DNA from: Bacteroidota bacterium
GTDB lineage: Bacteria; Bacteroidota; Bacteroidia; Bacteroidales; UBA4417
DNA: 64,000 bases
Direction of reading: 5' to 3'
NCBI GenBank assembly: GCA_013376995.1
Contig: JACAAZ010000007.1
Location: forward strand, 135,373-199,372
The notes under the pieces are model-generated. The model was not told where the DNA came from. It made no database searches and saw only the letters and a list, made by a program, of their open reading frames with translations. Numbering within the stretch: position 1 is the stretch's first letter; each line of letters starts with the position of its first letter. Positions 4,274 to 21,100 of this stretch are shown piece by piece. Made by a program: the position numbers and the translations under genes.

Positions 4274-5140
4274 ATGTCACTTGGCCACAAATTTTACCTT
4301 TTCCTGTTAACAATTATCACTCTAGCTGTTCTGGCCTATCTATCGTTTCATGGTTGGAATTATTATCAAACAAACCTTGAAGACCGGTTTTTTCATCCTG
4401 ATTATGCATCTCTGAAACCAAGCGGGATTTTCGGACATGGCTATGGAATTATTGGTTCATTGTGCATGTTGTTAGGCGTAGTATTATATATAGCCAGGAA
4501 ACGGCTTCGCAGCTGGTCGAGGATTGGCCTGCTCAAGCATTGGCTGGAGTTTCATATTTTTCTTTGCACAGTTGGTCCTATCCTTGTCCTCTATCATACA
4601 ACATTCAAATTCGGAGGATTGGTAGCCGTTAGTTTCTGGAGTATGGTTGCTGTGTTTGCTTCCGGTGTTATAGGCCGGTTCATTTATATCCAGATCCCGC
4701 GGACCATTGAAGGACGCGAGTTAAGCCTCAGTGAGGTTCGTGACATGAAGAGTAATATTGGACAGGTTCTATCTGAATCTTATCACCTGGATGAGGACTC
4801 TTTTAACCTGATCGTTGAATCTACAAGGAAGAAGATAGAAGTAATAGATTCAAACATTATTGCCAGGTATTTCAAAAAATATTCAGCTGACACAAAAGCT
4901 ATAAAGGCAGTGCATTCTGCTTTGTCAAAGAATAACTTATCAAAATCTGAAACCAGGGAATTATTAAGGCTGGTAAAGCACGATATCTCGCTCAACAGGA
5001 GGATTGACAGGCTGGTAACCATGCAGAACCTTTTTAAATACTGGCATGTGGCTCATCTTCCCTTTGCTTTTGTCATGCTGATCATCATGGTCATTCATGT
5101 TGCTGTAACCGTCACTTTTGGAGCTCATTGGATTTTCTGA
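4274..5140 (+). CDS. polytopic membrane protein with two H-x13-H pairs (putative dihaem-b transmembrane electron carrier, ferric-reductase-domain-like)
   Basis: The ATG at 4274 is preferred over the TTG at 4202. About 5 TM helices are predicted. FH-IFLCTVGPILVLY-H lies in one helix and AH-LPFAFVMLIIMVI-H in another. A long soluble insert sits between them. Confidence 0.6.
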   Translation: MSLGHKFYLFLLTIITLAVLAYLSFHGWNYYQTNLEDRFFHPDYASLKPSGIFGHGYGIIGSLCMLLGVVLYIARKRLRSWSRIGLLKHWLEFHIFLCTVGPILVLYHTTFKFGGLVAVSFWSMVAVFASGVIGRFIYIQIPRTIEGRELSLSEVRDMKSNIGQVLSESYHLDEDSFNLIVESTRKKIEVIDSNIIARYFKKYSADTKAIKAVHSALSKNNLSKSETRELLRLVKHDISLNRRIDRLVTMQNLFKYWHVAHLPFAFVMLIIMVIHVAVTVTFGAHWIF

Positions 5141-5142
5141 TT

Positions 5143-6477
5143 ATGGAATTAGTTCTTGAACAAGCCCTCATTTACACTTTAGCTATCCTTTTTTGCCTGG
5201 CTGTGATCATTCTATACTTGTGGCGGCAAAAGAAAAAATCGCGTAAGGTTGAAGAAAAGATATTGAAAGCCAAGGCTGAAGGATTGTATGAACCTGTTTC
5301 ACTGCATCCTGTGGTTGACGTTAACAGTTGTATAAGGACAGGTGCCTGCATTTCTGCCTGTCCTGAGAAAGATATTCTTGGTATAGTTAACGGCAAAGCG
5401 ACAACAATCAATGCTTCTCAGTGCATTGGTCATGGCGCCTGTTTTCATGCTTGTCCAACGCAGGCAATTACACTGTGTATTGGTACTGAGCAAAGGGGAG
5501 TCGATCTTCCCCATATCAACGAGCTTTTTGAAACCAATATTAACGGAGTATATATCGCCGGTGAATTGGGCGGTATGGGACTTATTAAGAATGCCGTTCA
5601 ACAGGGAGGGCAGGCTGTTGAAAATATAGTTAAGTACAGTAACAAACATCATGAAGCAGAATATGACCTGGTGGTAGTTGGAGCAGGTCCTGCAGGGATT
5701 TCTGCTTCACTGACTGCAAAAAAGCATAATCTGAGATGTATTACCCTTGAACAGGATACCTTGGGTGGAGCAGTGTTTACTTTTCCACGAGCAAAAATAG
5801 TAATGACATCTGCCATGGAATTGCCTTTGTATGGAAAGGTGAAGCTTTCAGAAACAAGCAAAACCGAGTTGCTGGATTTATGGAAGGAAGTTATCGCCAA
5901 AAATAATATCCTGATTCGAGAAAATTCCAAAGTAGAATCAATTGAGAAGCTAAATGGATATTTTGAGTTGAAAACGTTAACCGGTGAGCGATACACTACA
6001 CATAACGTGCTTCTTTCAATTGGGAGAAGGGGTACGCCCAGAAAACTTGGAGTTCCAGGTGAACAGATGGAAAAGGTTGCATATCGCTTGCTTGATCCTG
6101 AGATTATTTCCGGAAAAGAGATTCTGGTTGTCGGCGGTGGAGATTCTGCCATCGAATCCGCCCTTCTCCTTGCTGATCAAAACAAGGTTATCCTGTCATA
6201 TAGGGGTGATGTTTTCAGCAGGATCAAACAAAAGAATAATGAGAAGATTCATGAGGCAGCAGTTTCGGGACTGGTAGATCTTCAGTTTAACACTGAACTC
6301 AGCAGGATTGATAAGGATTTCATTACACTATCAAATTCAAAAACCGGTAAGGAGTTGATCTACAAAAATGACCTTGTGTACATCTTTGCCGGTGGAGAAT
6401 TACCAACACAGTTCCTTGAAAAGGTCGGAATACAGATTACAAAGAAATTTGGGGAAGCCATTCTTAAACATAAATAG
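5143..6477 (+). CDS. membrane-anchored ferredoxin-domain / FAD- and NAD(P)H-binding oxidoreductase (thioredoxin-reductase-like fold)
   Basis: The ATG at 5143 lies 2 nt after the upstream stop. It has an N-terminal TM helix and Cys motifs CIRTGACISACP and CIGHGACFHACP. The dinucleotide folds are VVVGAGPAG and VVGGGDSAIE. Confidence 0.8.
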   Translation: MELVLEQALIYTLAILFCLAVIILYLWRQKKKSRKVEEKILKAKAEGLYEPVSLHPVVDVNSCIRTGACISACPEKDILGIVNGKATTINASQCIGHGACFHACPTQAITLCIGTEQRGVDLPHINELFETNINGVYIAGELGGMGLIKNAVQQGGQAVENIVKYSNKHHEAEYDLVVVGAGPAGISASLTAKKHNLRCITLEQDTLGGAVFTFPRAKIVMTSAMELPLYGKVKLSETSKTELLDLWKEVIAKNNILIRENSKVESIEKLNGYFELKTLTGERYTTHNVLLSIGRRGTPRKLGVPGEQMEKVAYRLLDPEIISGKEILVVGGGDSAIESALLLADQNKVILSYRGDVFSRIKQKNNEKIHEAAVSGLVDLQFNTELSRIDKDFITLSNSKTGKELIYKNDLVYIFAGGELPTQFLEKVGIQITKKFGEAILKHK

Positions 6478-6502
6478 TAACTCAGGAAAATTCCCTGGCG
6501 AA

Positions 6503-8317
6503 ATGAGATTCATACTTGCATCGATTGTATTTGCTTTATTGCTTTGTTGTGGTAAACACAGCCAGGCCCAGATATCACCAGGAGATCTTGCCGAGGTGCA
6601 TGCCCAGCTTGAAGGTATTTCGAACTGCACAAAATGCCATACCCTTGGTTCAAAGGTGTCGAACGAAAAATGCCTGCAATGCCATACTGAAGTAAGTGCC
6701 AGAATTAAAAGCCAGAAAGGTTACCATTCATCTGTTCCTGTTTCCGGTAAAGCTTGTGTGAGTTGTCATAATGATCATCATGGTAAGAAATTCCAGATAA
6801 TCCGTTTCAATCCGGAAAGTTTTGATCACTTGTTTGCCGGTTACAAACTCCAGGGTGCGCATGCTAAACAGGAGTGCAAGAAATGCCATAAGCCGGAGAA
6901 TATCAGTGTGCCTGCAATTAAGAACAAGAAGTTCACTTACCTGGGACTAAGCACTAATTGCGGATCCTGCCATACAGATTATCACCAGAATACACTTTCC
7001 CTGACTTGTTCAAATTGCCATGGCTTTGACAACTTTAAGCCTGCGGTTAACTTCATCCATAATTCGGCAAAATTCAAACTGAGCGGGAAGCACGTTGATG
7101 TGCCCTGCGTGAAGTGTCATAAGATCACGGTATTAAAGGGATTGAAGTTCCAGGAATTTACCGGAATCCCGTTCCAGGGATGTGTGAATTGTCATGATGA
7201 TCCGCACAACAATAAATTTGGCAAGCTTTGCAGTGACTGCCACGTTGTTGAGTCATTCCAGGATATCAAGGGAAACTCCAAAATTGATCACTCAAAAACT
7301 AACTTTAAACTCGAGGATAAGCATCAGCAGGTAGCATGCAAATCCTGTCATAAGGGAAATATCAGTGACCCGGTAAAACATTCAAAGTGCCTGGATTGTC
7401 ATCCTGATTTTCATAAGGCCCAATTTGAGAAGCAAGGTGTTAACCAGGATTGCTCAGTTTGCCATGATACCAAGGGGTTCAATAATACATCATTCACAAC
7501 AGGGAGGCACAAGGAAACGAATTATGCCCTTGAAGGAAAACACCTGGACGTTGACTGCCTGAAATGCCACAAAAAGTCAGATACCTGGAATTTCAGGAAT
7601 TTAGGGAAGCAGTGTAAGGATTGTCACAATGATTATCATGAGAAGCAGTTTGTTAACCAGGGAGGTGTTCAGGATTGTGCGGATTGTCATAATGTAGCCG
7701 GCTTCAGTAATGCCAACTACACAATTGAGCAACACGACAAGGGCAACTTCCAGCTTAAAGGTGCTCACCTTGCAACACCATGCAATGCATGCCATCTTAA
7801 GAATAATAAATGGGCGTTCAGAGATATTGGGAAAAAGTGTAAGGATTGTCACCAGGATATTCATCAGAATAGTATAGATATAAAATATTATCCTGATCAT
7901 TCCTGCGAAAGTTGTCACAACCCTGAGGAATGGGCTTCAATAGCATATGATCACTCTCAGACGAACTTTAAGTTGTCCGGAGTTCATGCTACAACTCCCT
8001 GCCGGAAGTGCCACTTTGAAAACAAGCCTGGAGGCCAGACCGAACAGCGATTTGCCGGGCTTCCACAAGATTGCAATGGCTGTCATACCGATAATCATAA
8101 TCATCAATTTGATGAAAATGGTAAGACTGAATGTATAAAGTGCCATTCCTCAGAGGCCTGGACCATCAAGGATTTTGATCATAATAAGACTGGATTTAAA
8201 CTGGATGGAAGACATGAACATGTGCCTTGTAATAAATGCCATGTGCCTGTTAAGGAACAGCAAATCACCTATGTATTGTATAAGATAAAAGATACGCGAT
8301 GCGAAAGTTGTCACTGA
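6503..8317 (+). CDS. multihaem c-type cytochrome, 23 CxxCH motifs
   Basis: The ATG at 6503 follows the upstream stop at 6477. It has a signal peptide (MRFILASIVFALLLCCGKHSQAQ). I counted 23 CxxCH motifs in 604 aa, with recurrent CxxCHxDxH...F modules. Confidence 0.9.
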   Translation: MRFILASIVFALLLCCGKHSQAQISPGDLAEVHAQLEGISNCTKCHTLGSKVSNEKCLQCHTEVSARIKSQKGYHSSVPVSGKACVSCHNDHHGKKFQIIRFNPESFDHLFAGYKLQGAHAKQECKKCHKPENISVPAIKNKKFTYLGLSTNCGSCHTDYHQNTLSLTCSNCHGFDNFKPAVNFIHNSAKFKLSGKHVDVPCVKCHKITVLKGLKFQEFTGIPFQGCVNCHDDPHNNKFGKLCSDCHVVESFQDIKGNSKIDHSKTNFKLEDKHQQVACKSCHKGNISDPVKHSKCLDCHPDFHKAQFEKQGVNQDCSVCHDTKGFNNTSFTTGRHKETNYALEGKHLDVDCLKCHKKSDTWNFRNLGKQCKDCHNDYHEKQFVNQGGVQDCADCHNVAGFSNANYTIEQHDKGNFQLKGAHLATPCNACHLKNNKWAFRDIGKKCKDCHQDIHQNSIDIKYYPDHSCESCHNPEEWASIAYDHSQTNFKLSGVHATTPCRKCHFENKPGGQTEQRFAGLPQDCNGCHTDNHNHQFDENGKTECIKCHSSEAWTIKDFDHNKTGFKLDGRHEHVPCNKCHVPVKEQQITYVLYKIKDTRCESCH

Positions 8318-11142
8318 TAATTCTGCTTGTAGTTGTTGTGATGTCAGCAAAATTGCTGTCTCCGTCACCACATGGCCCTGACTTCAAGATAAGTTGCGGA
8401 GTATGTCATAGCGCCAAGGGTTGGGATTACGACAGGAATGTTTCCACTTTTCGGCATGATTCTACCGGGTTCATGCTGCTTGGCCAGCATAATTCAGTAA
8501 GCTGTAAAGCTTGTCATTCAACCCTTGTTTTTTCTGAGGCCAGGGGTAAGCAGAATTGCAATGCATGTCATGCCGATATCCATGAACAGACGCTTGGAAA
8601 TGATTGCGGAAGATGTCACACTCCTTCAGCCTGGCTGGTAAATAATATCACTGACCTGCACTTGAAAAGCCGTTTCCCTTTACAAGGTAAACACGCCATA
8701 GCTGACTGTTATTCATGTCATAAATCGGGCTCACTTCATCGTTTCGATCCCTTGGGAACAGAATGTTACGACTGTCACAGGACTGATTTTGAAGCTACGG
8801 CTCACCCTAACCATGTTCAGGGAGGGTTTTCCACAAACTGTTCAGAATGTCATATGGTTACAGGGTTCAATTGGAATAGTACCAATATCAACCATTCCTT
8901 TTTCCCGTTAACCGGAGGGCATTCACTTGATTGCAGCAGATGCCATACAAGCGGCAGTTATTCCGGCCTTTCCAGGTCCTGTGAATCCTGTCATCAGAAA
9001 GATTATAGTTCAGCCAACAATCCCAGCCACCAGGATCTGAACTTTCCTCTAGATTGTTCCCTCTGTCATACTACCAGCCCTGGATGGAAACCGGCTGAAT
9101 ACAAGGATCATGACAGCAGGTTCTTCCCCATATACTCCGGAAAGCACAATGGAGTCTGGAATGCCTGTTCGGATTGTCATGCCAACCCTTCGAATTACGC
9201 AATTTTCAGCTGTGTAAGCTGTCATGATCATAATCAAACATCGACAGACGAAGCCCATAGCAGTGTTGGTGGATATGTTTACAGCAGTGATGCATGTTTT
9301 CAGTGCCATCCCCAGGGAAGTGCAACCGGATCCTTTAATCACTCTACTTCCGGATTCCCGCTTACAGGCGCTCATTCAACCACACCATGCAGTCAATGTC
9401 ATGCAAACGGTTATGCAGGGACAACGACAGTGTGTGCGGATTGCCATACCAATAATTATAACCAGACCACCAATCCGAATCATACAACTGCGAATATTTC
9501 AAACCAATGTGCGCTTTGCCATACAACGAATCCAGGGTGGAAACCAGCCACATTTCCTACTCATAGCACCTATTATGAATTGACCGGTGCTCATACCTCC
9601 GTGGATTGCAATTCATGTCACAACGGTAATTATTCGAATACACCTAATAACTGTGCAGGTTGTCATACCAATAACTATAACCAGACTGCAAATCCTCCCC
9701 ATGTTTCTCTTGGGCTGAGTACAGAATGCTCAACCTGCCATACTACAAATCCTGGCTGGAAGCCGGCAACTTTTGCGGTTCACGATACTTATTACGTTCT
9801 GGCAGGCATTCATACTACTGTAGCCTGTAGTGATTGTCATTCAGCTGGTATTTATACAAATGCTCCGACTACCTGTTATGGATGTCATGCCGCAAACTAT
9901 AACCAGACAACGAATCCTCCTCATGCTACTTCTCAATTTTCGACCGATTGTGCCTCCTGCCATACGCAAACTGCATGGGTTCCTGCAACATTCGACCATG
10001 ATAACCAATACTTTCCTATCTATTCAGGGAAGCATAATAACCAATGGACACTTTGTTCTGAATGCCATTCGAATCCGGCAAACTATGCACAATTCAGTTG
10101 TATTGACTGCCATTCACATAGTAATAAGACAGAAGTTGATAACCAGCATTCAGGAGTAGGTGGTTATGCATACAATAGCCCGGCATGCTACGCCTGTCAT
10201 CCAACAGGATCAACGGCGGGTGCCTTTAATCACGGAACATCTCCTTTCCCGTTAACCGGGGGACACCAGGGTGTTGATTGTAGTGCTTGCCATTCAAATG
10301 GTTATGTCAATACAAGTATGATTTGTAAGGATTGTCATACTCCCAATTACAACCAGACATCTAATCCTGTGCATGCCGCTATTGGCATTTCTACGGATTG
10401 CGCTGTTTGTCATACTACAAACCCTGGCTGGCAACCAGCAACTTTCCCAACTCATAATAATTATTATGCACTTACAGGAGCTCATTCAACGATTTCCTCA
10501 AATTGTGCATCATGTCATAATGGTAACTACAATTCCACCCCGAATGTATGTTCAGGATGTCACATGAACAACTATAACCAGACCAATAATCCAAGTCATG
10601 TGACACTAGGATTATCGAATGATTGTGCCACCTGCCATACAACAAATCCAGGCTGGACACCTGCGACTTTCTCCATTCACAACAATTATTATGTGCTTGC
10701 CGGTGCTCATATTTCTCTGGCTTGCAATACCTGCCATAACGGGAATTACAACAACATCCCGAATACCTGTGTAGGCTGCCACCTGACAGATTATAACCAG
10801 ACGAACAATCCACCTCATGCTTCAGCACAATATCCTACAGATTGCGAGAGTTGCCATACACAAACCGCATGGATTCCATCTACTTTCAATCATGACGCCC
10901 AATACTTCCCCATTTATTCGGGAGCACATAACGGGCAGTGGAGTACTTGTTCCGATTGCCATACAAATTCTTCAAATTACACGGTATTTACGTGTTTAAC
11001 CTGTCATGCGCAGTCGACAATGAACAATTCCCATAGTGGAGTCTCAGGATATTCGTACAATAGCAATGCTTGTTATCAATGTCATCCGAACGGTTCTTCC
11101 GGTGGGAAAATGAGAATTCAGAATAAGGATAAAATAGATTAA
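8299..11142 (+). CDS. giant multihaem c-type cytochrome, 37 CxxCH motifs
   Basis: It has its own signal peptide (MRKLSLIILLVVVVMSAKLL). I counted 37 CxxCH motifs in 947 aa, with repeated CHTxNYNQTxNPxH and CHTTNPGWKPATF modules. It overlaps the upstream gene by 19 nt. Confidence 0.9.
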   Translation: MRKLSLIILLVVVVMSAKLLSPSPHGPDFKISCGVCHSAKGWDYDRNVSTFRHDSTGFMLLGQHNSVSCKACHSTLVFSEARGKQNCNACHADIHEQTLGNDCGRCHTPSAWLVNNITDLHLKSRFPLQGKHAIADCYSCHKSGSLHRFDPLGTECYDCHRTDFEATAHPNHVQGGFSTNCSECHMVTGFNWNSTNINHSFFPLTGGHSLDCSRCHTSGSYSGLSRSCESCHQKDYSSANNPSHQDLNFPLDCSLCHTTSPGWKPAEYKDHDSRFFPIYSGKHNGVWNACSDCHANPSNYAIFSCVSCHDHNQTSTDEAHSSVGGYVYSSDACFQCHPQGSATGSFNHSTSGFPLTGAHSTTPCSQCHANGYAGTTTVCADCHTNNYNQTTNPNHTTANISNQCALCHTTNPGWKPATFPTHSTYYELTGAHTSVDCNSCHNGNYSNTPNNCAGCHTNNYNQTANPPHVSLGLSTECSTCHTTNPGWKPATFAVHDTYYVLAGIHTTVACSDCHSAGIYTNAPTTCYGCHAANYNQTTNPPHATSQFSTDCASCHTQTAWVPATFDHDNQYFPIYSGKHNNQWTLCSECHSNPANYAQFSCIDCHSHSNKTEVDNQHSGVGGYAYNSPACYACHPTGSTAGAFNHGTSPFPLTGGHQGVDCSACHSNGYVNTSMICKDCHTPNYNQTSNPVHAAIGISTDCAVCHTTNPGWQPATFPTHNNYYALTGAHSTISSNCASCHNGNYNSTPNVCSGCHMNNYNQTNNPSHVTLGLSNDCATCHTTNPGWTPATFSIHNNYYVLAGAHISLACNTCHNGNYNNIPNTCVGCHLTDYNQTNNPPHASAQYPTDCESCHTQTAWIPSTFNHDAQYFPIYSGAHNGQWSTCSDCHTNSSNYTVFTCLTCHAQSTMNNSHSGVSGYSYNSNACYQCHPNGSSGGKMRIQNKDKID
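9124..10905 (+). repeat. two tandem in-frame super-repeats (888 nt and 894 nt) inside the 37-haem cytochrome gene
   Basis: The units are delimited by the FPIYSG(K/A)HN motif at codons starting 9124, 10012 and 10906. Each unit carries 12 CxxCH in the same order. A third, partial unit (3 CxxCH) follows. Confidence 0.85.
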
Positions 11143-11152
11143 TGCGAAGCTT

Positions 11153-12775
11153 ATGAAGTATTTTGTGTGTTTTATTCTGATGATGATCGGTATTGCTGGT
11201 TTCGGCCAGGCCGGTAAGCAGGTGCTTGAGGGGTCGGTTACTTATATTACCTCTCAAAATGTTTATGTGGGTTTTGCTTCAACGAAAGGCCTGACCGCAG
11301 GAGACACGCTTTATATTCTAAAGGAAAATAATTCCATACCAGCGCTTTTAATTAAGGATCTTTCTTCCCGCTCATGCGTATGTATTGCGCTTAACAGCCT
11401 GGTCTTTACCGTCGGGGATAAGATAATAAGCGGTGAAAAGCTAGTAGCTATTGATTCCAACGCTGCATCTAAAAACCCTGAACCCGTGAAACCAGCCGAG
11501 GTAAAGGTTGATACAGCAACTTCTTCAGGGAGTGGCCAGCAAGCCAGGAAACAATTGATTACAGGAAGGATCTCGGTTTCTTCGAATACAGGTTTTTCAA
11601 ACGTTTCTTCAACAAATGAGCGAATGCGTTATACTCTGCAGTTGAATGCCAGGAATATTGGCAACTCCAGATTATCAGCCGAATCCTATGTATCTTTTAC
11701 TCATAGGAACAATGAGTGGAAGCAAATTAAAAGCAATATCTTCAACGGGCTTAAGATTTATAACCTTGCGTTGAGTTACGAGTTGGGGAAATATTCGCAC
11801 CTGAGTTTAGGCCGGAAAATCAATCCAAATCTATCGACGATGGGGGCTATTGACGGGCTTCAGTATGAGTTCAGGAAAAAGGAATTCAGTGCTGGTGTAA
11901 TTGCCGGATCACGGCCTGATTATAGTGATTACGGGTTCAATTTTAATCTGCTGCAGTATGGGGCGTATCTTGGTTTGGATCATCAAATGGGGAAAGGAAG
12001 CATGCAGAATTCCGTTGCGTTTATTGAACAGCAGAATTCCGGGAAAACGGATCGTCGGTTTGCTTATTTCCAGCACTCCAATACGGTAGTGAAAAACCTC
12101 TACCTCTATGGTTCTCTCGAAGTGGATCTTTTCATCAGGAAGATTGACAGTATCAGCAATAGCAGTCCCAGCCTGACTAACCTTTATGTTTCATTAAGAT
12201 ATAAAATAGGACAGAAACTATCACTTTCGGCTTCATATAGTTCCAGGAAGAATACCATTTATTATGAAACTTACCGGTTGCTTTACACTGAAAGCTATGT
12301 TGATATGATCAGGAATTCGTTGTCCAGCCAAACACAGGGTTATTTTGTGACAGCCAATTATCATACGAATAGCAGGTTGTTATTTGGACTGTCATCAGGA
12401 TACAGGTTCCAGAAGAATGATCCCAAACCGTCGAAGAACCTCTATGGTTATGCAACCTACCTGGATATGCCTGGTTTACATGTTTCATTCACTTTGTCTG
12501 CAACACTGATGCAGTCAACCTATCTTTCTGGTAATATTTTTGGACTCGGTATTTCGAGGGACTTCCTTAAAGGGAAGCTCTATGCGAATATCAACGTAAA
12601 GTATGCCAAATACCTCTATAGCAGTTTCGATGCAACTATCATGCAGTACTTGGGAGAAGCTGACCTGATGTGGCGAATCAGCCGGAAGCTGTCTTTATCA
12701 GTTGACTATAATACAACAATGGAAAAGACTGTGAAGTATGGAAGTGTTTATGTTCAGCTGAGTAAAAGTTTTTAG
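11153..12775 (+). CDS. outer-membrane beta-barrel protein (porin-like partner of the cytochromes)
   Basis: It has a signal peptide (MKYFVCFILMMIGIAGFGQA), a small N-terminal domain and a Pro/Lys/Ser linker. About 400 aa then show an alternating hydrophobic strand pattern. The C-terminus is ...YVQLSKSF (terminal Phe). Confidence 0.7.
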   Translation: MKYFVCFILMMIGIAGFGQAGKQVLEGSVTYITSQNVYVGFASTKGLTAGDTLYILKENNSIPALLIKDLSSRSCVCIALNSLVFTVGDKIISGEKLVAIDSNAASKNPEPVKPAEVKVDTATSSGSGQQARKQLITGRISVSSNTGFSNVSSTNERMRYTLQLNARNIGNSRLSAESYVSFTHRNNEWKQIKSNIFNGLKIYNLALSYELGKYSHLSLGRKINPNLSTMGAIDGLQYEFRKKEFSAGVIAGSRPDYSDYGFNFNLLQYGAYLGLDHQMGKGSMQNSVAFIEQQNSGKTDRRFAYFQHSNTVVKNLYLYGSLEVDLFIRKIDSISNSSPSLTNLYVSLRYKIGQKLSLSASYSSRKNTIYYETYRLLYTESYVDMIRNSLSSQTQGYFVTANYHTNSRLLFGLSSGYRFQKNDPKPSKNLYGYATYLDMPGLHVSFTLSATLMQSTYLSGNIFGLGISRDFLKGKLYANINVKYAKYLYSSFDATIMQYLGEADLMWRISRKLSLSVDYNTTMEKTVKYGSVYVQLSKSF

Positions 12776-14834: not shown

Positions 14835-16628
14835 CTATTGTTTAATAAACCTGAGCGGGATAGATTCAGAATCTGAAGTATGAATTATATAAACTCCTGG
14901 ATCAAGTCTCTTTATATTTATTCTACCCTGTTTATCCGGTTTGACTTTGGAGACGCATTCACCACTAACTGAATAAACCGTTATTTCCTTAGGGGGAGTA
15001 GACCCGCAAATAGTAATTATATCTTTAGCCGGATTGGGATAGATGGTATAGTGCGAAATCCCGGCGGGGGCAATTCCTTGGAAAGAGTTCACCTCATACG
15101 CCCCTATATCAATCCTCCCACCATACACCCTGATCCTGCTCAAAAGGTCCGTAGTCCCTATTTGTGTGGGAGGATCTGTAGTACCCATGTTGATGCAGGA
15201 AGAAGATGGGCCAATATCCCAGTTTGATTCCGGATCAATGAACCAGGGATAGTATTTGCCGGCTTCGTTACCGGAATTTTCCGCTTCCAGTATTATAGTC
15301 CCGTTAGTGAGGTCGGTTGCACCCTGGATGGCATTGTTTAAACCACCGTCAATTCCTTCATCATTCTCATTGCCCCAGAATATAGAATTTACCACGGAGA
15401 GTGGTGCATAAATGCCATCTCCATATATGGCCCCGGAATTTTTGACTACCGTACAATTAATTATAGTACCCCCGTAAATACCAGCACCGTAAGACCGGGA
15501 GAATTCATGTTCAAGAATCCTGTTTTTGGCAATGAGCGAACCTGTCAGGTTTCCGTTATAAATATATATACCTCCTCCTGAAGGTATTTCTGCCATTTCC
15601 GGACCATAAACCTGGTTGTCGTGAATATTACAGTTGAGTATGTTGCTGTTTTCAGTGTAAATCCCACCTCCAAAGGTTTTTGAAGAACAATTCCTGATCT
15701 CGGAATTCTTCATCAGGCAGCCATTGGCAAGTGCCACTCCACCACCATAGGTGCCATAATTTCCATCATTTGAAGACAGATAACCTTCTGAAAATGTACA
15801 ATTATTGATCGAAGACTGATTTGCAAACAGGCATCCGCCAAAAACATCGGTGTAATAGGCGGGGATGATTCTACAATTACTGACAGTGCAGTTTTCGAGG
15901 GTGCTCATATTGGAATAGATACCTCCACCTGTTCCAACACCCCATGAAGCAACATTAACAGGTACCGAAGTGCAGTTTGTAACTTTTACATATCCAAGAT
16001 TACTTTTGAAAGCTGCAATTCCCGCTCCGTAAACCTGGTGTATTGTTTCATCTTCATTGTGACTATGATGTCCACAGTTGTTAACAATACAATTGCGGAT
16101 ATACCCGCTATCAGCAATAATGCCGGAAGCTATGGAGTCAATGGAGTATCCGTTTGTTATGGTGAATCCATCTATCAGTGTGTGATTGTCACCCTGAAGC
16201 ATTCTCAGGATATGATGAGTGTTGTTGGAACTGTCAGCATCACCCTGTAATTCACCGGTCAGGATACTTGCATTGGTAAACTCCCATGGTTCAATGGTGC
16301 CGTTACCATCCACATCACTTGTGGCTCTTTCTGATATGGAGGCCTCATTTCCAAGAAAACCGCCAAACATATAATTCCCGTTGTTCAGTATAAAGGAGGT
16401 AGTTGCATCTGTGTTATCTGCTTTATAAGTCCCGGCTGCCACCCAGATCTCGGAATTTGAAGCATTCTGAAGCACTGTACTTAAATTACCGGCTGCATTT
16501 GACCAGCTAGATCCATCGCCACTACTACCTGTTTTGACATAGATCCTGCCTTGCAGCTTATTCTGCTGGGCCAATAGGAAGGTAAAGGAAGAAAATACCA
16601 GGACTAAGAAGAAAATTGCTTTTTTCAT
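14835..16628 (-). CDS. secreted right-handed beta-helix repeat protein with T9SS C-terminal sorting domain
   Basis: It has a signal peptide, many GGGIY/GAGIY/NC(T/S) turn repeats and a DVDGNGTIEPWEF Ca-binding-like loop. The C-terminal ~80 aa (YTIYPNPAKDIITI...VYSVSGE...LDPGVYIIH) resemble a Por/T9SS CTD. Confidence 0.75.
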   Translation of the reverse strand: MKKAIFFLVLVFSSFTFLLAQQNKLQGRIYVKTGSSGDGSSWSNAAGNLSTVLQNASNSEIWVAAGTYKADNTDATTSFILNNGNYMFGGFLGNEASISERATSDVDGNGTIEPWEFTNASILTGELQGDADSSNNTHHILRMLQGDNHTLIDGFTITNGYSIDSIASGIIADSGYIRNCIVNNCGHHSHNEDETIHQVYGAGIAAFKSNLGYVKVTNCTSVPVNVASWGVGTGGGIYSNMSTLENCTVSNCRIIPAYYTDVFGGCLFANQSSINNCTFSEGYLSSNDGNYGTYGGGVALANGCLMKNSEIRNCSSKTFGGGIYTENSNILNCNIHDNQVYGPEMAEIPSGGGIYIYNGNLTGSLIAKNRILEHEFSRSYGAGIYGGTIINCTVVKNSGAIYGDGIYAPLSVVNSIFWGNENDEGIDGGLNNAIQGATDLTNGTIILEAENSGNEAGKYYPWFIDPESNWDIGPSSSCINMGTTDPPTQIGTTDLLSRIRVYGGRIDIGAYEVNSFQGIAPAGISHYTIYPNPAKDIITICGSTPPKEITVYSVSGECVSKVKPDKQGRINIKRLDPGVYIIHTSDSESIPLRFIKQ

Positions 16629-16900: not shown

Positions 16901-18004
16901 ATGGAAATTTCCTGGTTGATCAGTAAGGCATTGGATTTTGAATTTCTGAACCTGGAAGAAGGTTTATTTCTTTATGAACAAGCATCGACGGCAGAGTTGA
17001 TGTTTGCTGCCAATGAAATACGAACCATTTTGCACCCCGGTAATAAGGTTACCTGGCTCATTGACAGGAATGTGAATTATACGAATGTCTGTGTTTCAGG
17101 ATGCCAGTTCTGCAATTTCTATCGCTCAAAAAACAGCAGGGAGGCTTATGTTACTACTTTGGAGGACTATAAGCAGAAGATCGATGAACTTTTTGTGCTG
17201 GGAGGAGAGCAACTCCTTCTACAGGGTGGATTGCATCCGGGGCTGGGACTCGATTTTTACGTGGATCTTTTCAGGAACCTGAAAAAAATACAACCCAGGC
17301 TTAAACTTCATGCGTTGGGGCCTCCTGAAATTGTACATATAGCAAATATGGAAAGCCTGAGTTACAGGCATACGCTGGAAAAGTTAATCCAGGCAGGACT
17401 TGACAGTTTGCCGGGGGCAGGTGCTGAAATCCTGGTTGACCGTGTCAGGAGCCAGGTGTCGAAAAATAAATGCTCAGCTTCCGAATGGCTGGATGTGATG
17501 CGCGAAGCTCATAAACTTGGGCTGACTACTTCTGCCACGATGATGTTTGGGCATATTGAAACCAGGGAAGAGCGGATACAGCACATGATATCTATTCGGG
17601 AAGTCCAGGCAGAGAAACCCGGGAATGCAACAGGATTTATCTCTTTCATTCCCTGGCCATTCCAGGATGAAGGGACAAACCTTCAGAAAGTTCAGGGAGT
17701 CAGAAACCATGTCACCTCTGAAGAATATATACGTACCATTGCGATCAGCAGGATTATGTTGCCTAATATCCCCAATATCCAGGCTTCCTGGTTAACGGTG
17801 GGTAAAGAGATAGGACAAATTTGCCTTCACGCAGGGGCCAATGATTTTGGTTCGATTATGATCGAGGAGAATGTGGTATCCGTTGCCGGTGCTAAATTCA
17901 AGTTTGATAAAGAAGGCATTCAGCTGGCTATAAGGGAAGCGGGCTTTGAACCACAGTTGAGGAATCAGCAGTTTGAAGAGCGCACGCTTTCACCGGTTTC
18001 CTGA
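16901..18004 (+). CDS. mqnC: radical SAM menaquinone (futalosine pathway) enzyme, MqnC/MqnE family, MqnC-like
   Basis: CVSGCQFCNF radical-SAM CxxxCxxC motif, GGEQLLLQGG, and MMFGHIETREERIQH...FISFIPWPFQ. MqnC versus MqnE cannot be resolved by eye. Confidence 0.55.
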   Translation: MEISWLISKALDFEFLNLEEGLFLYEQASTAELMFAANEIRTILHPGNKVTWLIDRNVNYTNVCVSGCQFCNFYRSKNSREAYVTTLEDYKQKIDELFVLGGEQLLLQGGLHPGLGLDFYVDLFRNLKKIQPRLKLHALGPPEIVHIANMESLSYRHTLEKLIQAGLDSLPGAGAEILVDRVRSQVSKNKCSASEWLDVMREAHKLGLTTSATMMFGHIETREERIQHMISIREVQAEKPGNATGFISFIPWPFQDEGTNLQKVQGVRNHVTSEEYIRTIAISRIMLPNIPNIQASWLTVGKEIGQICLHAGANDFGSIMIEENVVSVAGAKFKFDKEGIQLAIREAGFEPQLRNQQFEERTLSPVS

Positions 18005-18118: not shown

Positions 18119-21100
18119 CTACAGTCCGTTTTTCTTTGCTGTTTGTGAATGTAAAGAAAAATAGAAGGTAGCTCCTTTATTCACCTGTCCCTCAGCCCAT
18201 ATTTCACCACCATGGCGCAGGATTATCCTCTGGGCAATAGCCAGACCAACCCCTGTGCCTTCAAACTCGGTGGCGGGATGAAGCCTTTGAAAGACCCCAA
18301 AGAGCTTGTTTTTGAATTCCATATCGAACCCAACCCCATTGTCCTGGATACTAAAGACCTGTCGATGTTTTTCGGTTGAACATCGTATGCAAACCAGGGG
18401 TTTCTCTCTTTTGGAACTGTACTTAATAGCGTTCAACAATAAGTTGGTCCAAACCTGTTTTATCATAATTGGATCTCCGATAGAAGCCGGCATTTCATCA
18501 ATCTGGAATTCAAATTTTGCCAGGGTTTCAGGATCCAGTATTTCATTGAGGATCGTCTGAATTATTTCATTCATATTGATCTCGGTCTTCATTATTTCTT
18601 TCCTGCCAAGGCGGGAGAATGCAAGAAGATCATCGATCAGGTGCCCCATTTTCAGTGAGTTCTGTTTAATGATAGAACATATTCGTTTGCCTTCGTCATC
18701 CAGTTTAGGGGCATAATCTTCCATCAGGATTTGTGAGAAGCCATTAATACTTCTAAGGGGAGAGCGAAGGTCGTGGGATACAGAATAAGAAAAGGCTTCA
18801 AGTTCTTTATTGGCAGCCTGTAACTGGGATGTTCGGTCAATTACGCGGTTTTCGAGATATGAATTAAGTGTTCTTACTTCTTCTTCTGCCCTTTTGCGTG
18901 CCGTGATGTCCCTGAAATACCATACTCTGCCCATATATTCTTCGTTTTTGTTAAACATTGGGGCTGAATATCGTTCTATGATTTTACCATCTTTGGGCCT
19001 TATCTCATCAAGGCTGAATTCATGGATGTTGTTAAAAATATCCCTGATCCGCTGAGTAAATTCTTCTTTATAATCAAACATTGAACTGATATATTCCAAC
19101 AAGGCGGCATCATCCTTCCCTTCAGTTATTTTCTTTGGAATTTTCCACATTTCTATCATTCGTTGGTTGAGTGAGAGGATTTTCGCGTTCTGATCCACAG
19201 TAAGTATACCATCCAGTGAAGCCTCCTGTTGCGTTTTGAGTATGAGATTTGAGAACTGTAATTCCGCTTCTGCTCTTTTTCTCTCAGTAATTTCATTACC
19301 CATTATCAACAGGTATGAATTTCCCCTTAGATCAACCTTTTCAACTGAAATGAGCATAATGCCGATACTTCCGTCCTTTTTATTGATCTCAACTTCTAAA
19401 TTGATTACCCTGCCAATTTTGCTGAGATTGTCCTTCATTTTTTGTCTCATCTCAGGGAATCTCCATAGATTCAGATCCTTAAAGCTGTGCCCGATGACTT
19501 CTTCCCTTAAATACCCGGTAACTTCAAGGAAGGCTTCGTTTACTTCGATCCATTTTTCGCTAGAGGGATCTGTAAGGCTGATGGGTATGGGGCTAGAATG
19601 GAATGAGGTAGAAAACAATGCTTCGCTTTCTTTCAGTGCGGCTTCAACTTCTTTCCGTTCGGAAATATCATTTACTAATCCCAGGATGCATTTTTCACCA
19701 TTGATTGTTATTATTTCAGATGATATCAAGAGATCCCGAATTTCTCCACTCTTTTTCCTGGCTTTTATTTCGAAATTACTGCAATGACCTGTTTGGTTGA
19801 GTAGCATAATCATTTCCCCGCGTTGTTCCGGCTTTGCCCATAGACCCAATTCATCAGGCGAGCTTCCCAGCATTTCTTCACGTGAATATCCATGTAAATT
19901 TGCAAATGCCTGATTAAGATCAACAATTTTGCTTGACGTCAATTCTGTTATAACGATACCTGTAGGGCTATTTTGGAAGACAATGGAAAGCCTTTCCTCG
20001 CTTTCTTTCAGTTTTTTTGCAGAGTTCCTGCTCTCTGTGATATCATGTGTTGAGCTAATAATATGGTGGACCCCGTTTAGTTCAATGACGGATGCTGACA
20101 TTCGGCCATACCTGATTGTACCGTCCTTTCTGCGGAATCGGGCTTCCAGGTTATGAACCGCCCCATCTTTCTTTAATCCTTCCACCAACCGATTCCTGTC
20201 ATTAAGATCTTCCCATATATCCAATTCAATGGAGCTTTTCCCTAATACTTCAGCTTCCGTGTACCCAAGAATGTTGGTAAAGCCTTGATTGATTGATATA
20301 TATAGCCCATCTGACATCCGGTTGATGTTTATTGAGTCAGGGCTTGTTAAGAAACCTTTTCGGAATTTTTCCTCACTATCACGCAATTCTTTTTCCACCT
20401 GTTTGCGCTCCATGATATTTCTGGAAACTCCATACACTTCAATATGGCCAGAATCCTGGTTTAGTACCAGACGAGTTGTAGTTTCAGTCCATACCGTAGA
20501 ACCATCTTTACAATATTCTTCGATTTCATCCAAATATGCTTTCCTGATACCATTTTTGAAATCATTGATACGCTGAGGCAAGGATGCAGTTAGATTTTTT
20601 GCAGTTGGAGGTGTTATTCCGCTCATACCATCTTGTTTCATGACTTCTTCAACAGTATATCCGCGTAACCTGATTACAGAAGGACTTACATACAGGAACC
20701 GGGAAGTTTGCAAGTCCATTATCCAGATTACATCCGAAATATTTTCAGCCAGGAGGCGGTATTTCCTTTCGCTTTCCTTTAGTGCTTCTTCAGCTTGTTT
20801 ACGCTGGGTAATAACTTCAGAAAAGAGAATTATTCCTCCAACTTCACCAGGTTTCTCAAACCAGGGGTGAATTTCCCAACGAACCCAGTCAAGGTTGCCA
20901 TCTTCTCTCGGGAAAGTATCTTCCTGGGCTGATGCTATTCCTCCGTTAAGGCATAACTGATGAATTGCTTTCCAGCGATCGGGTATTTCCGGAAAGACCG
21001 CATAATGTGAACGACCTATGATATTTTTATCCGAGATCCGGTAATCTTCAAGAAATCTCCGGCTAACAGAAATATACCTCATTTCCCGGTCGAACATCGC

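What the first reader, a model, noticed from the sequence alone, without database searches (positions are those of the whole stretch)
8299..11142. 37-haem cytochrome built from two tandem 12-haem super-repeats of about 297 aa
Units at 9124..10011 (296 codons) and 10012..10905 (298 codons) each carry 12 CxxCH in the same order, bounded by FPIYSG(K/A)HN. A third truncated unit (3 CxxCH) ends the protein, and a 10-haem N-terminal region precedes them.

Inside each unit, an ~84-aa sub-repeat recurs: C..CH.(N/T)NYNQT.NP.H ... C..CHTTNPGW(K/Q/T)PATF..H..YY.L.G.H....C..CH. The mature protein is rich in Asn/Thr/Ser and poor in charged residues, which suggests an extracellular location.

The nucleotide copies are clearly diverged. 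The duplication is therefore old and maintained, as expected for a modular haem 'nanowire'-like extension.
Basis: seen in the sequence. Interest (0 to 1): 0.6.

Follow-up and report, generated by a model that had tools for sequence, protein, structure and literature searches.

The report
Modular 37-haem cytochrome wire, Bacteroidota family
This gene encodes a real 37-haem electron-carrying protein built from repeated three-haem modules; it is the shortest member seen here of a large, unnamed Bacteroidota family (16 to at least 108 haems) that always sits beside a fixed partner cytochrome and an outer-membrane barrel, so it is probably a length-adjustable wire for moving electrons out of the cell.

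Summary
ORF 8299..11142 (+) encodes 947 aa with exactly 37 CxxCH, and all 74 Cys lie in those motifs. The two claimed units carry 12 haems each (66% aa, 64% nt identity). One correction: the basic period is a 73-76-aa trihaem module, not about 84 aa. The layout is signal peptide, decahaem head (1+3 modules), two [A-B1-B2-B3] super-repeats, and a complete terminal A module. That last module is a conserved cap, not a truncated remnant.

Pfam places the protein in the c7/c3 class. It fails the Geobacter nanowire_3heme and MtrA/DmsE models. Each module has three conserved non-motif His, so the haems are probably all bis-His.

Relatives number in the thousands and are all named "hypothetical". Among the 217 fetched, haem counts run from 37 to 108, and 85% fit 1+3k. 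In 20+ genomes the gene lies in one cluster: dihaem-b-like membrane protein, FeS flavoprotein, constant 20/23-haem cytochrome, this variable cytochrome, and a barrel of about 540 aa with 22 predicted strands.

An envelope electron conduit is the best reading. Extracellular location is inferred, not shown. The scan had already noted this operon on the same window. I class it as a new variant of a known kind.

The parts
8299..11142 (+). Gene for the 947-aa, 37-haem modular cytochrome (stop codon included)
   Evidence: ORF list. 37 CxxCH, with all Cys in the motifs. Pfam Cytochrome_C7 6e-35, Cytochrom_c3_2 3e-24.
8299..8358 (+). Sec signal peptide (MRKLSLIILLVVVVMSAK..), followed by the conserved mature N-terminus SPHG; no lipobox
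   Evidence: Sequence. Homologues show ..AQ|SPHG at the same place.
8359..9099 (+). Decahaem 'head': one single haem plus three divergent trihaem modules (CxxCH at aa 33, 69, 87, 103, 137, 156, 181, 212, 228, 253)
   Evidence: CxxCH positions. The gap pattern 36,16-18,16,34,19,25,31-32,16,25 recurs in most relatives from 16 to 37 haems, with variants in the most distant ones. The head has more charged residues than the rest.
9124..10011 (+). Super-repeat 1: modules A-B1-B2-B3, 12 haems, 296 aa
   Evidence: Global alignment with unit 2: 66% aa, 64% nt. Module identity matrix.
10012..10905 (+). Super-repeat 2: modules A-B1-B2-B3, 12 haems, 298 aa
   Evidence: It is closest to the last unit of relatives.
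10906..11106 (+). Terminal A-type trihaem 'cap' (FPIYSGAHN ... GYSYNSNACYQCHPNG)
   Evidence: 57-64% identical to the internal A modules. 68-74% identical to the cap of relatives, so it is the best-conserved part. Present at the end of nearly all complete family members.
11107..11139 (+). Short Lys/Arg-rich C-terminal tail (KMRIQNKDKID); present in some relatives only
   Evidence: Sequence. Comparison of C-termini.
6503..8317 (+). Partner cytochrome, 23 CxxCH, Lys-rich. Its 3' end overlaps the start of the 37-haem gene by 19 nt
   Evidence: A constant 20- or 23-haem partner stands in nearly every related locus (15 haems in one, L028). SPase-I site AQ|ISPGD, so not a lipoprotein.
11153..12775 (+). 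540-aa outer-membrane protein: small N-terminal beta domain, disordered linker, 22-strand beta-barrel, C-terminal ..SKSF
   Evidence: AF2 pLDDT 78, with 22 strands between residues 135 and 539. Foldseek hits only large OM barrels, including MtrB 6r2q_B. The family has 515 clusters at E<=1e-30.
4274..5140 (+). 288-aa membrane protein with two conserved H-x13-H pairs (putative dihaem b)
   Evidence: Alignment of four orthologues from three orders. Weak DUF4405 hit. Syntenic in most loci.
5143..6477 (+). Membrane-anchored 2x[4Fe-4S]-type ferredoxin domain plus FAD/NAD(P)H-type (Pyr_redox_3) flavoprotein
   Evidence: Pfam and NCBIfam. Syntenic in L001-L003.

Best explanation
The gene encodes the variable-length component of a conserved electron conduit in the cell envelope of Bacteroidota (in the GTDB sense, which includes Ignavibacteria).

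The protein is one polypeptide carrying 37 covalently bound c-type haems. It has a conserved decahaem head, a stalk of c7/c3-class trihaem modules (here two four-module super-repeats) and a conserved trihaem cap. Each module supplies three conserved non-motif histidines. All haems are therefore most likely low-spin bis-His, suited to electron transfer or storage and not to catalysis.

Inferred pathway: a cytoplasmic FeS flavoprotein oxidises NAD(P)H or a similar donor. A dihaem-b-like membrane protein carries the electrons across the inner membrane. The Lys-rich 23-haem partner takes them through the periplasm. The 37-haem protein, held in or at the 22-strand outer-membrane barrel, passes them outward to insoluble or polymeric acceptors such as Fe(III) or Mn(IV) minerals, humics or other cells.

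Stalk length is set by gain and loss of trihaem modules or of A-B-B(-B) blocks.

Shown: gene, haem motifs, module grammar, family, synteny, barrel fold prediction. Inferred: axial ligation, direction of electron flow, insertion in the barrel, extracellular exposure of the stalk.

The confidence given is for the conduit reading as a whole. That the protein is a multihaem electron-transfer protein of this modular family is near certain. That the stalk itself is extracellular is about even odds.
For: - 37 CxxCH, no free Cys.
- Pfam Cytochrome_C7 119 bits against a 24.8-bit cut-off.
- 41 non-motif His for 37 haems. Three per module are invariant or nearly so in 25 aligned homologues. There are only 8 Met, none of them conserved.
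- Hierarchical repeat.
- Haem counts of 37-108 in 217 relatives, 85% of the form 1+3k. Counts reach down to 16 in syntenic loci.
- The same gene order (b-type protein, flavoprotein, 20/23-haem, variable cytochrome, barrel) in more than 20 genomes from several families of the phylum.
- Overlapping or closely spaced genes.
- The barrel is predicted with confidence and resembles large OM barrels, including MtrB. Its 22 strands fall in the 18-22 range reported for Pcc porins (PMC4245776).
- K+R falls in steps: partner 13.6%, head 5.6%, stalk 1.2%, cap 1.9% (n=173).
- A cytochrome c maturation protein (Cytochrom_C_asm, 807-aa frame) is present in the genome.
Against: - There is no experimental or expression evidence.
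- The AF2 model of the cytochrome itself is unusable (pLDDT 38). Haem packing and linearity are therefore assumed by analogy with GSU1996.
- There is no lipoprotein signal, T9SS domain or other known export signal for crossing the outer membrane.
- A 22-strand barrel is narrower than the 26-strand MtrB.
- Which of the two cytochromes enters the barrel is unknown.
- Composition gradients are circumstantial.
- The poly-c7 proteins of Geobacter are regarded as periplasmic capacitors (PMC10138318).
Confidence: 0.6

Rival explanations
1. Periplasmic electron store (capacitor). The giant cytochrome stays in the periplasm and buffers electrons, as proposed for Geobacter GSU1996, GSU0592 and GSU2210. 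Only the 20/23-haem partner, or only the head, engages the barrel.
For: Sec signal only, with no outer-membrane export signal. The poly-trihaem architecture parallels GSU1996, which is periplasmic (PMC10138318). Capacity would scale with haem number, which would explain the free variation from 16 to 108. A capacitor role was also suggested for the Saprospiraceae giants (PMC11495043).
Against: The gene lies immediately upstream of the barrel gene in most loci. The extreme K/R depletion contrasts with the Lys-rich partner in the same operon. A chain of 100+ haems would be several times longer than the width of the periplasm if it is extended (inference from about 1 nm per haem in GSU1996).
Confidence: 0.28
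2. Inward conduit. The system takes electrons up from Fe(II), reduced humics, cathodes or partner cells and delivers them to the cell.
For: Porin-cytochrome conduits such as MtoAB and PioAB work inward in iron oxidisers (PMC5566968, PMC4245776). Bis-His haem chains are reversible in principle.
Against: The inner-membrane module is a flavoprotein of the NAD(P)H-oxidoreductase type. Reducing NAD(P)+ from Fe(II) or low-potential c-haems runs uphill without an energy input, and none is evident in the cluster. No Cyc2- or Mto-like genes were seen in the cluster.
Confidence: 0.08
3. Catalytic multihaem reductase, for example for nitrite, sulfite, hydroxylamine or metalloids, rather than a wire.
For: Some multihaem families (NrfA, HAO, MccA, octahaem tetrathionate reductase) are enzymes. 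There is a weak NCBIfam similarity to DmsE/ExtN-type proteins.
Against: There is no CxxCK and no atypical haem motif. Every module has enough conserved His for bis-His ligation. There is no non-cytochrome domain. Repeat number varies freely, which is unlike an enzyme active site.
Confidence: 0.03

Closest known systems
Geobacter sulfurreducens poly-c7 'nanowire' cytochromes GSU1996 / GSU0592 (12 haems) and GSU2210 (27 haems)
   Same: One polypeptide made of tandem trihaem domains of the c7 class, giving a linear haem chain. Both lack any domain other than the cytochrome modules. Both match Pfam Cytochrome_C7 (PMC10138318).
   Different: No hit to the NCBIfam nanowire_3heme model TIGR04257. PDB profile matches to the GSU1996 fragments 3oue and 3ouq reach only E about 0.1. 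GSU1996 has one His-Met haem per domain, whereas here three conserved His per module point to all bis-His. The spacing of the three CxxCH is different (15/25). The repeats are hierarchical (A and B modules, super-repeats). The family spans 16-108 haems. The gene sits in an operon with an OM barrel, and the protein is K/R-poor, not basic.
Porin-cytochrome conduits: MtrCAB (Shewanella) and Pcc OmaB-OmbB-OmcB (Geobacter; also reported in Ignavibacterium album)
   Same: A barrel gene adjacent to multihaem cytochrome genes. The predicted barrel has 22 strands, within the 18-22 reported for Pcc porins (PMC4245776). Foldseek lists MtrB 6r2q_B among the matches.
   Different: No sequence membership: the DmsE/MtrA model scores 33 bits against a 192-bit cut-off, and the barrel has no Pfam or NCBIfam hit. 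Neither cytochrome is a lipoprotein, unlike MtrC and OmcB. The cytochromes have 20-108 haems rather than 8-12. The published I. album Pcc (14-haem IALB_1838) is a different cluster. The inner-membrane input is an FeS flavoprotein plus a dihaem-b-like protein, not CymA, ImcH or CbcL.
Desulfovibrio high-molecular-weight cytochromes HmcA (16 haems, 1z1n) and nine-haem cytochrome (19hc)
   Same: These are the best profile matches among solved structures (E 7.6e-6 and 5e-3). They are tandem c3-type modules in one chain with bis-His haems.
   Different: They are tetrahaem c3-type units, periplasmic subunits of inner-membrane complexes. They have no OM barrel partner and no length variation. The similarity is confined to the spacing around CxxCH.
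Polymerised cytochrome filaments OmcS / OmcE / OmcZ
   Same: The proposed function, long-range extracellular haem wires, is the same.
   Different: Those wires are non-covalent polymers of 4-8-haem subunits. Here length is encoded in a single gene by module number. No homology was detected.

Membership tests
Class III (c3/c7) multihaem cytochromes (Pfam PF14522, PF14537, PF02085) | Match above the curated cut-off to the family HMMs | tested here: met
   PF14522 119.3 bits (cut-off 24.8), PF14537 85.6 (25), PF02085 71.6 (22.9).
Class III (c3/c7) multihaem cytochromes | Closely spaced CxxCH with bis-His axial ligation | tested here: inconclusive
   37 CxxCH and 41 other His. Three non-motif His per module are conserved in 25 homologues, and there is no conserved Met. 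Ligation itself needs spectroscopy or a structure.
Geobacter nanowire trihaem-domain family (NCBIfam TIGR04257, GSU1996 type) | Match to the TIGR04257 domain model (cut-off 40 bits) | tested here: not met
   No hit at E<=0.01 for the 37-haem protein. The 23-haem partner scores 16 bits.
Geobacter nanowire trihaem-domain family | One His-Met haem in each trihaem domain | tested here: not met
   There are 8 Met in 947 aa, none at a repeated module position. The conserved ligand candidates are all His. The feature is as described in PMC10138318.
MtrA/DmsE decahaem family (TIGR03508) | Match above the 192-bit cut-off; about 300 aa with 10 haems | tested here: not met
   33.3 bits.
MtrC/OmcA outer-surface decahaem lipoproteins | Lipoprotein signal, and two pentahaem domains alternating with two beta-barrel domains | tested here: not met
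   No Cys outside CxxCH, so no lipobox. PF22113 matches only one stretch (53.6 bits, residues 226-372) and no beta domain was detected.
Porin-cytochrome trans-outer-membrane complex (functional class) | Gene for an OM beta-barrel next to genes for periplasmic multihaem cytochromes | tested here: met
   Barrel prediction. Synteny in more than 20 loci.
Porin-cytochrome trans-outer-membrane complex (functional class) | A cytochrome physically inserted in the barrel and electron transfer across the membrane | not testable with these tools
   Needs a complex structure, proteoliposome assays or genetics.
T9SS cargo (the usual Bacteroidota route to the surface) | C-terminal Por_Secre_tail domain | tested here: not met
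   No PF18962 hit in the cytochrome. A neighbouring gene at 14835..16628 does have it.

The most novel reading that the evidence does not exclude
The family is a genetically length-tunable, single-polypeptide extracellular haem wire (16 to more than 100 haems, roughly 15-100 nm) that threads an outer-membrane barrel. It is fed directly from cytoplasmic NAD(P)H through a NOX-like FeS-flavoprotein and dihaem-b transmembrane module. That would be a quinone-independent route of extracellular electron transfer, widespread in Bacteroidia and Ignavibacteria of sludge, sediments and aquifers.
Probability: 0.3. Interest if true: 0.8.

Novelty: new variant of a known kind. Interest (0 to 1): 0.55.

Why it matters
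Bacteroidota and Ignavibacteria are abundant in sediments, aquifers, anodes and activated sludge, but their means of extracellular electron transfer are essentially uncharacterised. Surveys have only remarked that Saprospiraceae encode 'undescribed' cytochromes with very many haem motifs (PMC11495043) and that Ignavibacteria carry 33-40-haem proteins (PMC7399161).

The analysis here gives that family a simple grammar: decahaem head, trihaem stalk modules, trihaem cap, so that haem number is 1+3k. It also gives a fixed genetic context: a constant partner cytochrome, a dedicated barrel family, and a flavoprotein/b-type input module.

This makes the question testable:
- Module number can be changed by design.
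- Several carriers are single-contig genomes and may be cultured isolates.
- The 37-haem version in this window is the shortest of the 217 full-length relatives fetched, so it is the most tractable one for expression and structure work.

If the stalk is extracellular, it would be a way of building long-range wires by gene length rather than by polymerisation.

Tried and rejected
1. AF2 of the full protein with a 25-sequence alignment gave pLDDT 38 and pTM 0.20. No fold search was run on it, and no haem-haem distances can be given.
2. A plain sequence search of the 37-haem protein, the barrel and the b-type protein against PDB found nothing significant. Only a module profile reached HmcA and the nine-haem cytochromes.
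3. Tandem Repeats Finder found no array in the gene. The copies are too diverged at nucleotide level, so repeat slippage in this genome is unlikely.
5. Lipoprotein anchoring of the 23-haem partner (the 'LLLCCG' in its signal peptide) is rejected. Orthologues lack the Cys and share the AQ|ISPGD cleavage site.
6. Identity with the published Ignavibacterium album Pcc cluster is rejected on component sizes (14-haem, 400 aa).
7. The papers on Melioribacter multi-omics, OM-MHC prediction and peat MHCs contain nothing on this family.
9. Pfam ResB was not found in the genome, but a Cytochrom_C_asm protein of 807 aa was.
Full report
OBSERVATION

The ORF at 8299..11142 on the + strand encodes 947 aa. 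A recount gives exactly 37 CxxCH, with no CxxxCH, CxxxxCH or CxxCK. All 74 cysteines lie in these motifs, and there are 78 His and 8 Met.

The two claimed units (9124..10011, 296 aa; 10012..10905, 298 aa) align globally with only three small gaps. They are 66% identical in protein and 64% in DNA. Each has 12 CxxCH and begins FPIYSGKHN. The last 78 aa begin FPIYSGAHN and hold three CxxCH.

The period needs correction. CxxCH spacing (15, 25, 33...) and the nucleotide repeat families (spacings of 219-225 nt) show an elementary unit of 73-76 aa with three haems, not about 84 aa.

The protein reads as one haem plus twelve trihaem modules. A module-by-module identity matrix shows:
- Modules 4, 8 and 12 are one type, 'A', 57-64% identical to each other.
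- Modules 5/9, 6/10 and 7/11 are positional pairs (62, 73 and 63%).
- Modules 1-3 are divergent (31-49%).

The layout is therefore: signal peptide, decahaem head, [A-B1-B2-B3] twice, then A. The super-repeat arose by duplication of a four-module block.

WHAT IT IS

Pfam places the protein in the class III cytochromes: Cytochrome_C7 119 bits, Cytochrom_c3_2 86 bits, Cytochrom_CIII 72 bits, all far above the cut-offs.

It does not reach the NCBIfam model for the Geobacter 'nanowire' trihaem domain (TIGR04257). It scores only 33 bits against the 192-bit cut-off of the DmsE/MtrA decahaem family.

No solved structure is found by sequence. A profile of 26 B modules finds Desulfovibrio 16-haem HmcA (E 7.6e-6) and the nine-haem cytochrome (E 5e-3). 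Cytochromes c7, PpcA and the GSU1996 fragments reach only E 0.05-0.5. The module is thus a distinct branch of the c3/c7 class.

In an alignment of 25 homologues, every module has three invariant or nearly invariant histidines outside the CxxCH motifs. No methionine is conserved. The haems are therefore most likely all bis-His, which fits electron transfer or storage and not catalysis. This is an inference from sequence.

THE FAMILY

A search of 5.8 billion proteins returned more than 5,600 significant hits among the 8,000 candidates scored. They come from Bacteroidales, Saprospiraceae, Lewinellaceae, Chitinophagales, Ignavibacteriales and Melioribacteraceae MAGs. Nearly all named ones are 'hypothetical protein', and a few carry evidently wrong names.

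The window's protein is the shortest of the 217 relatives fetched. Their CxxCH counts run 37, 40, 43... up to 108 (2,648 aa), and 184 of 217 are of the form 1+3k.

Parsing the architectures shows one grammar: one haem, three head modules, then blocks of A followed by two, three, four or more B modules, and a final A.

In more distant syntenic loci the same head is followed by as little as one B module plus the cap, giving 16 haems in 421 aa. Its gap pattern there is 36,16,16,34,19,25,32,16-17,25. Other distant loci have a long run of B modules without internal A modules. The head and the cap are the constant parts and the stalk is the variable part.

Among the close relatives, the cap is the best-conserved segment (68-74%, against 52-57% for the head).

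Unit comparisons show weak positional orthology. The window's unit 1 is closest to the first unit of relatives, and unit 2 to their last. They also show higher identity between neighbouring units within a protein (up to 88%) than between proteins (55-68%). The arrays therefore expand or are homogenised independently in different lineages.

In this genome the copies share no long identical DNA, and Tandem Repeats Finder reports nothing. The array here is old and stable.

CONTEXT

The gene lies in a tight cluster:
- a 288-aa membrane protein (4274..5140)
- a membrane-anchored ferredoxin-domain/FAD flavoprotein (5143..6477)
- a 23-haem cytochrome (6503..8317), whose end overlaps the start of the 37-haem gene by 19 nt
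- the 37-haem gene
- ten bases later, a 540-aa protein (11153..12775)

The same order recurs in a Bacteroidales, a Lewinellaceae and an Ignavibacteriales MAG. It also recurs in about 20 further genomes drawn from a sample of 401 genomes of the phylum. In that sample the 540-aa protein family was found in 34 genomes, patchily distributed.

In most of these loci the first cytochrome has 20 or 23 haems (15 in one locus). The second has 16, 22, 24, 31, 32, 33, 34, 37, 40, 43, 46, 49, 58, 61, 64 or 67.

The 540-aa protein is predicted with good confidence (pLDDT 78). It has a small N-terminal beta domain, a disordered linker and a 22-strand barrel ending in ..SKSF. Foldseek matches only large outer-membrane barrels: ushers, AlgE, TonB-dependent receptors and MtrB. 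It has no Pfam or NCBIfam family, yet it forms 515 clusters at 50% identity with E<=1e-30, all about 540 aa long.

The 288-aa protein has two H-x13-H pairs in predicted helices. Both pairs are conserved across three orders. This feature was noted earlier in this scan and was checked here. The flavoprotein has Pyr_redox_3/Pyr_redox_2 and Fer4 domains.

The genome is 5.05 Mb and 96.7% complete. It has twelve ORFs with four or more CxxCH and only one such cluster. It also has a cytochrome c maturation protein.

LOCATION

Both cytochromes have SPase-I-type signal peptides with conserved cleavage contexts (AQ|ISPGD and AQ|SPHG). Neither has a conserved lipobox Cys or a T9SS C-terminal domain, although the genome uses T9SS. 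Any exposure at the surface would have to occur through the barrel.

Three observations favour exposure of the stalk, but none of them shows it:
1. The gene lies beside the barrel gene.
2. K+R content falls in steps across the family: partner 13.6%, head 5.6%, stalk 1.2%, cap 1.9%. In the window's B modules, all charged residues together make up 1.4-5.5%.
3. Length is unconstrained. At about 1 nm per haem, as in the 12-haem GSU1996 (own knowledge of Pokkuluri et al. 2011; architecture described in PMC10138318), 37 haems would span about 35-40 nm and 108 haems about 100 nm. That is well beyond the width of the periplasm.

A periplasmic capacitor role, as proposed for the Geobacter proteins (PMC10138318) and suggested for the Saprospiraceae giants (PMC11495043), remains a serious rival.

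MECHANISM PROPOSED

Electrons from a cytoplasmic donor (NAD(P)H, by domain type) enter through the FeS flavoprotein. They cross the inner membrane on the dihaem-b-like protein and pass to the Lys-rich 20/23-haem partner. From there they move to the acidic, K/R-poor giant cytochrome held at the barrel, and leave to external acceptors.

Only the parts list and its conservation are shown. The direction of flow, the complex and the topology are inferred by analogy with MtrCAB and Pcc (PMC4245776) and with NOX-type transmembrane electron transfer.

COMPARISON AND NOVELTY

The closest known kind is the Geobacter poly-c7 cytochrome (GSU1996, GSU2210), followed by the porin-cytochrome conduits. This family fails the sequence models of both. 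It differs from them in several ways:
- haem ligation pattern
- module spacing
- hierarchical repeats
- range of haem number
- absence of lipoprotein components
- the inner-membrane input module

The published Ignavibacterium album Pcc cluster has a 14-haem, 400-aa periplasmic cytochrome and is a different system.

In the searchable literature the family is only mentioned in surveys. PMC11495043 refers to 'undescribed cytochromes' with very many haem motifs, mostly in Saprospiraceae. PMC7399161 reports Ignavibacteria with 33- and 40-haem proteins. I found no dissection of its architecture or operon.

The scan itself had already noted the operon and its parts on this same window.

I rate this finding as a new variant of a known kind. 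The single 37-haem gene is a small member of a large uncharacterised family, and the interest lies in the family grammar and its context.

LIMITS

- The AF2 model of the cytochrome is unusable, so no haem distances can be given.
- The genome sample covers 401 of many genomes, so absence elsewhere is not shown.

Noticed in passing
window 4274-12775: The five genes (dihaem-b-like membrane protein, FeS flavoprotein, 23-haem cytochrome, 37-haem cytochrome, 22-strand barrel) form a cluster conserved across Bacteroidia and Ignavibacteria-type genomes. The input module resembles a split NOX/ferric-reductase design rather than a quinol oxidase.
   Followed up: partly
window 8299-8317: The 23-haem gene ends ..CESCH-stop, and its last 19 nt overlap the start of the 37-haem gene. 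A similar overlap (19-22 nt) occurs in L001 and L003, which suggests translational coupling.
   Followed up: partly
L002 2745-12350: In a Lewinellaceae MAG a 22-haem 'mini' version (head + short stalk + cap) occupies the slot before the barrel, and a 58-haem giant is encoded after the barrel. One barrel may therefore serve two stalk cytochromes of different length.
   Followed up: no
window 11153-11560: The barrel protein has a small N-terminal beta domain (residues 26-93, with a conserved S-S-x-S-C-V-C stretch) joined by a disordered Pro/Lys/Ser linker. Its role is unknown; it could be a plug, or a dock for a cytochrome.
   Followed up: no
window 14835-16628 (-): The neighbouring gene encodes a T9SS cargo protein (Por_Secre_tail). 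The organism therefore has type IX secretion, but the cytochromes do not carry its signal.
   Followed up: partly
window 16901-18004 (+) and 18119-22546 (-): A CofH/MqnC-type radical SAM gene (futalosine route to menaquinone) and a 1,475-aa histidine kinase with several PAS domains and GAF lie a few kb downstream. A regulatory link to the cytochrome cluster was not examined.
   Followed up: no
G000:C34:198352-198876: A second Cytochrom_C_asm match in the genome carries two in-frame stops (TAG, TAA). It may be a pseudogene or two genes.
   Followed up: no
window 9343-10860 (B modules): The B modules are almost free of charged residues (1.4-5.5% D+E+K+R) and contain many N-x-S/T triplets (23 in the protein against 7 in the partner). 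The conserved NYNQT motif may be structural or a modification site.
   Followed up: no
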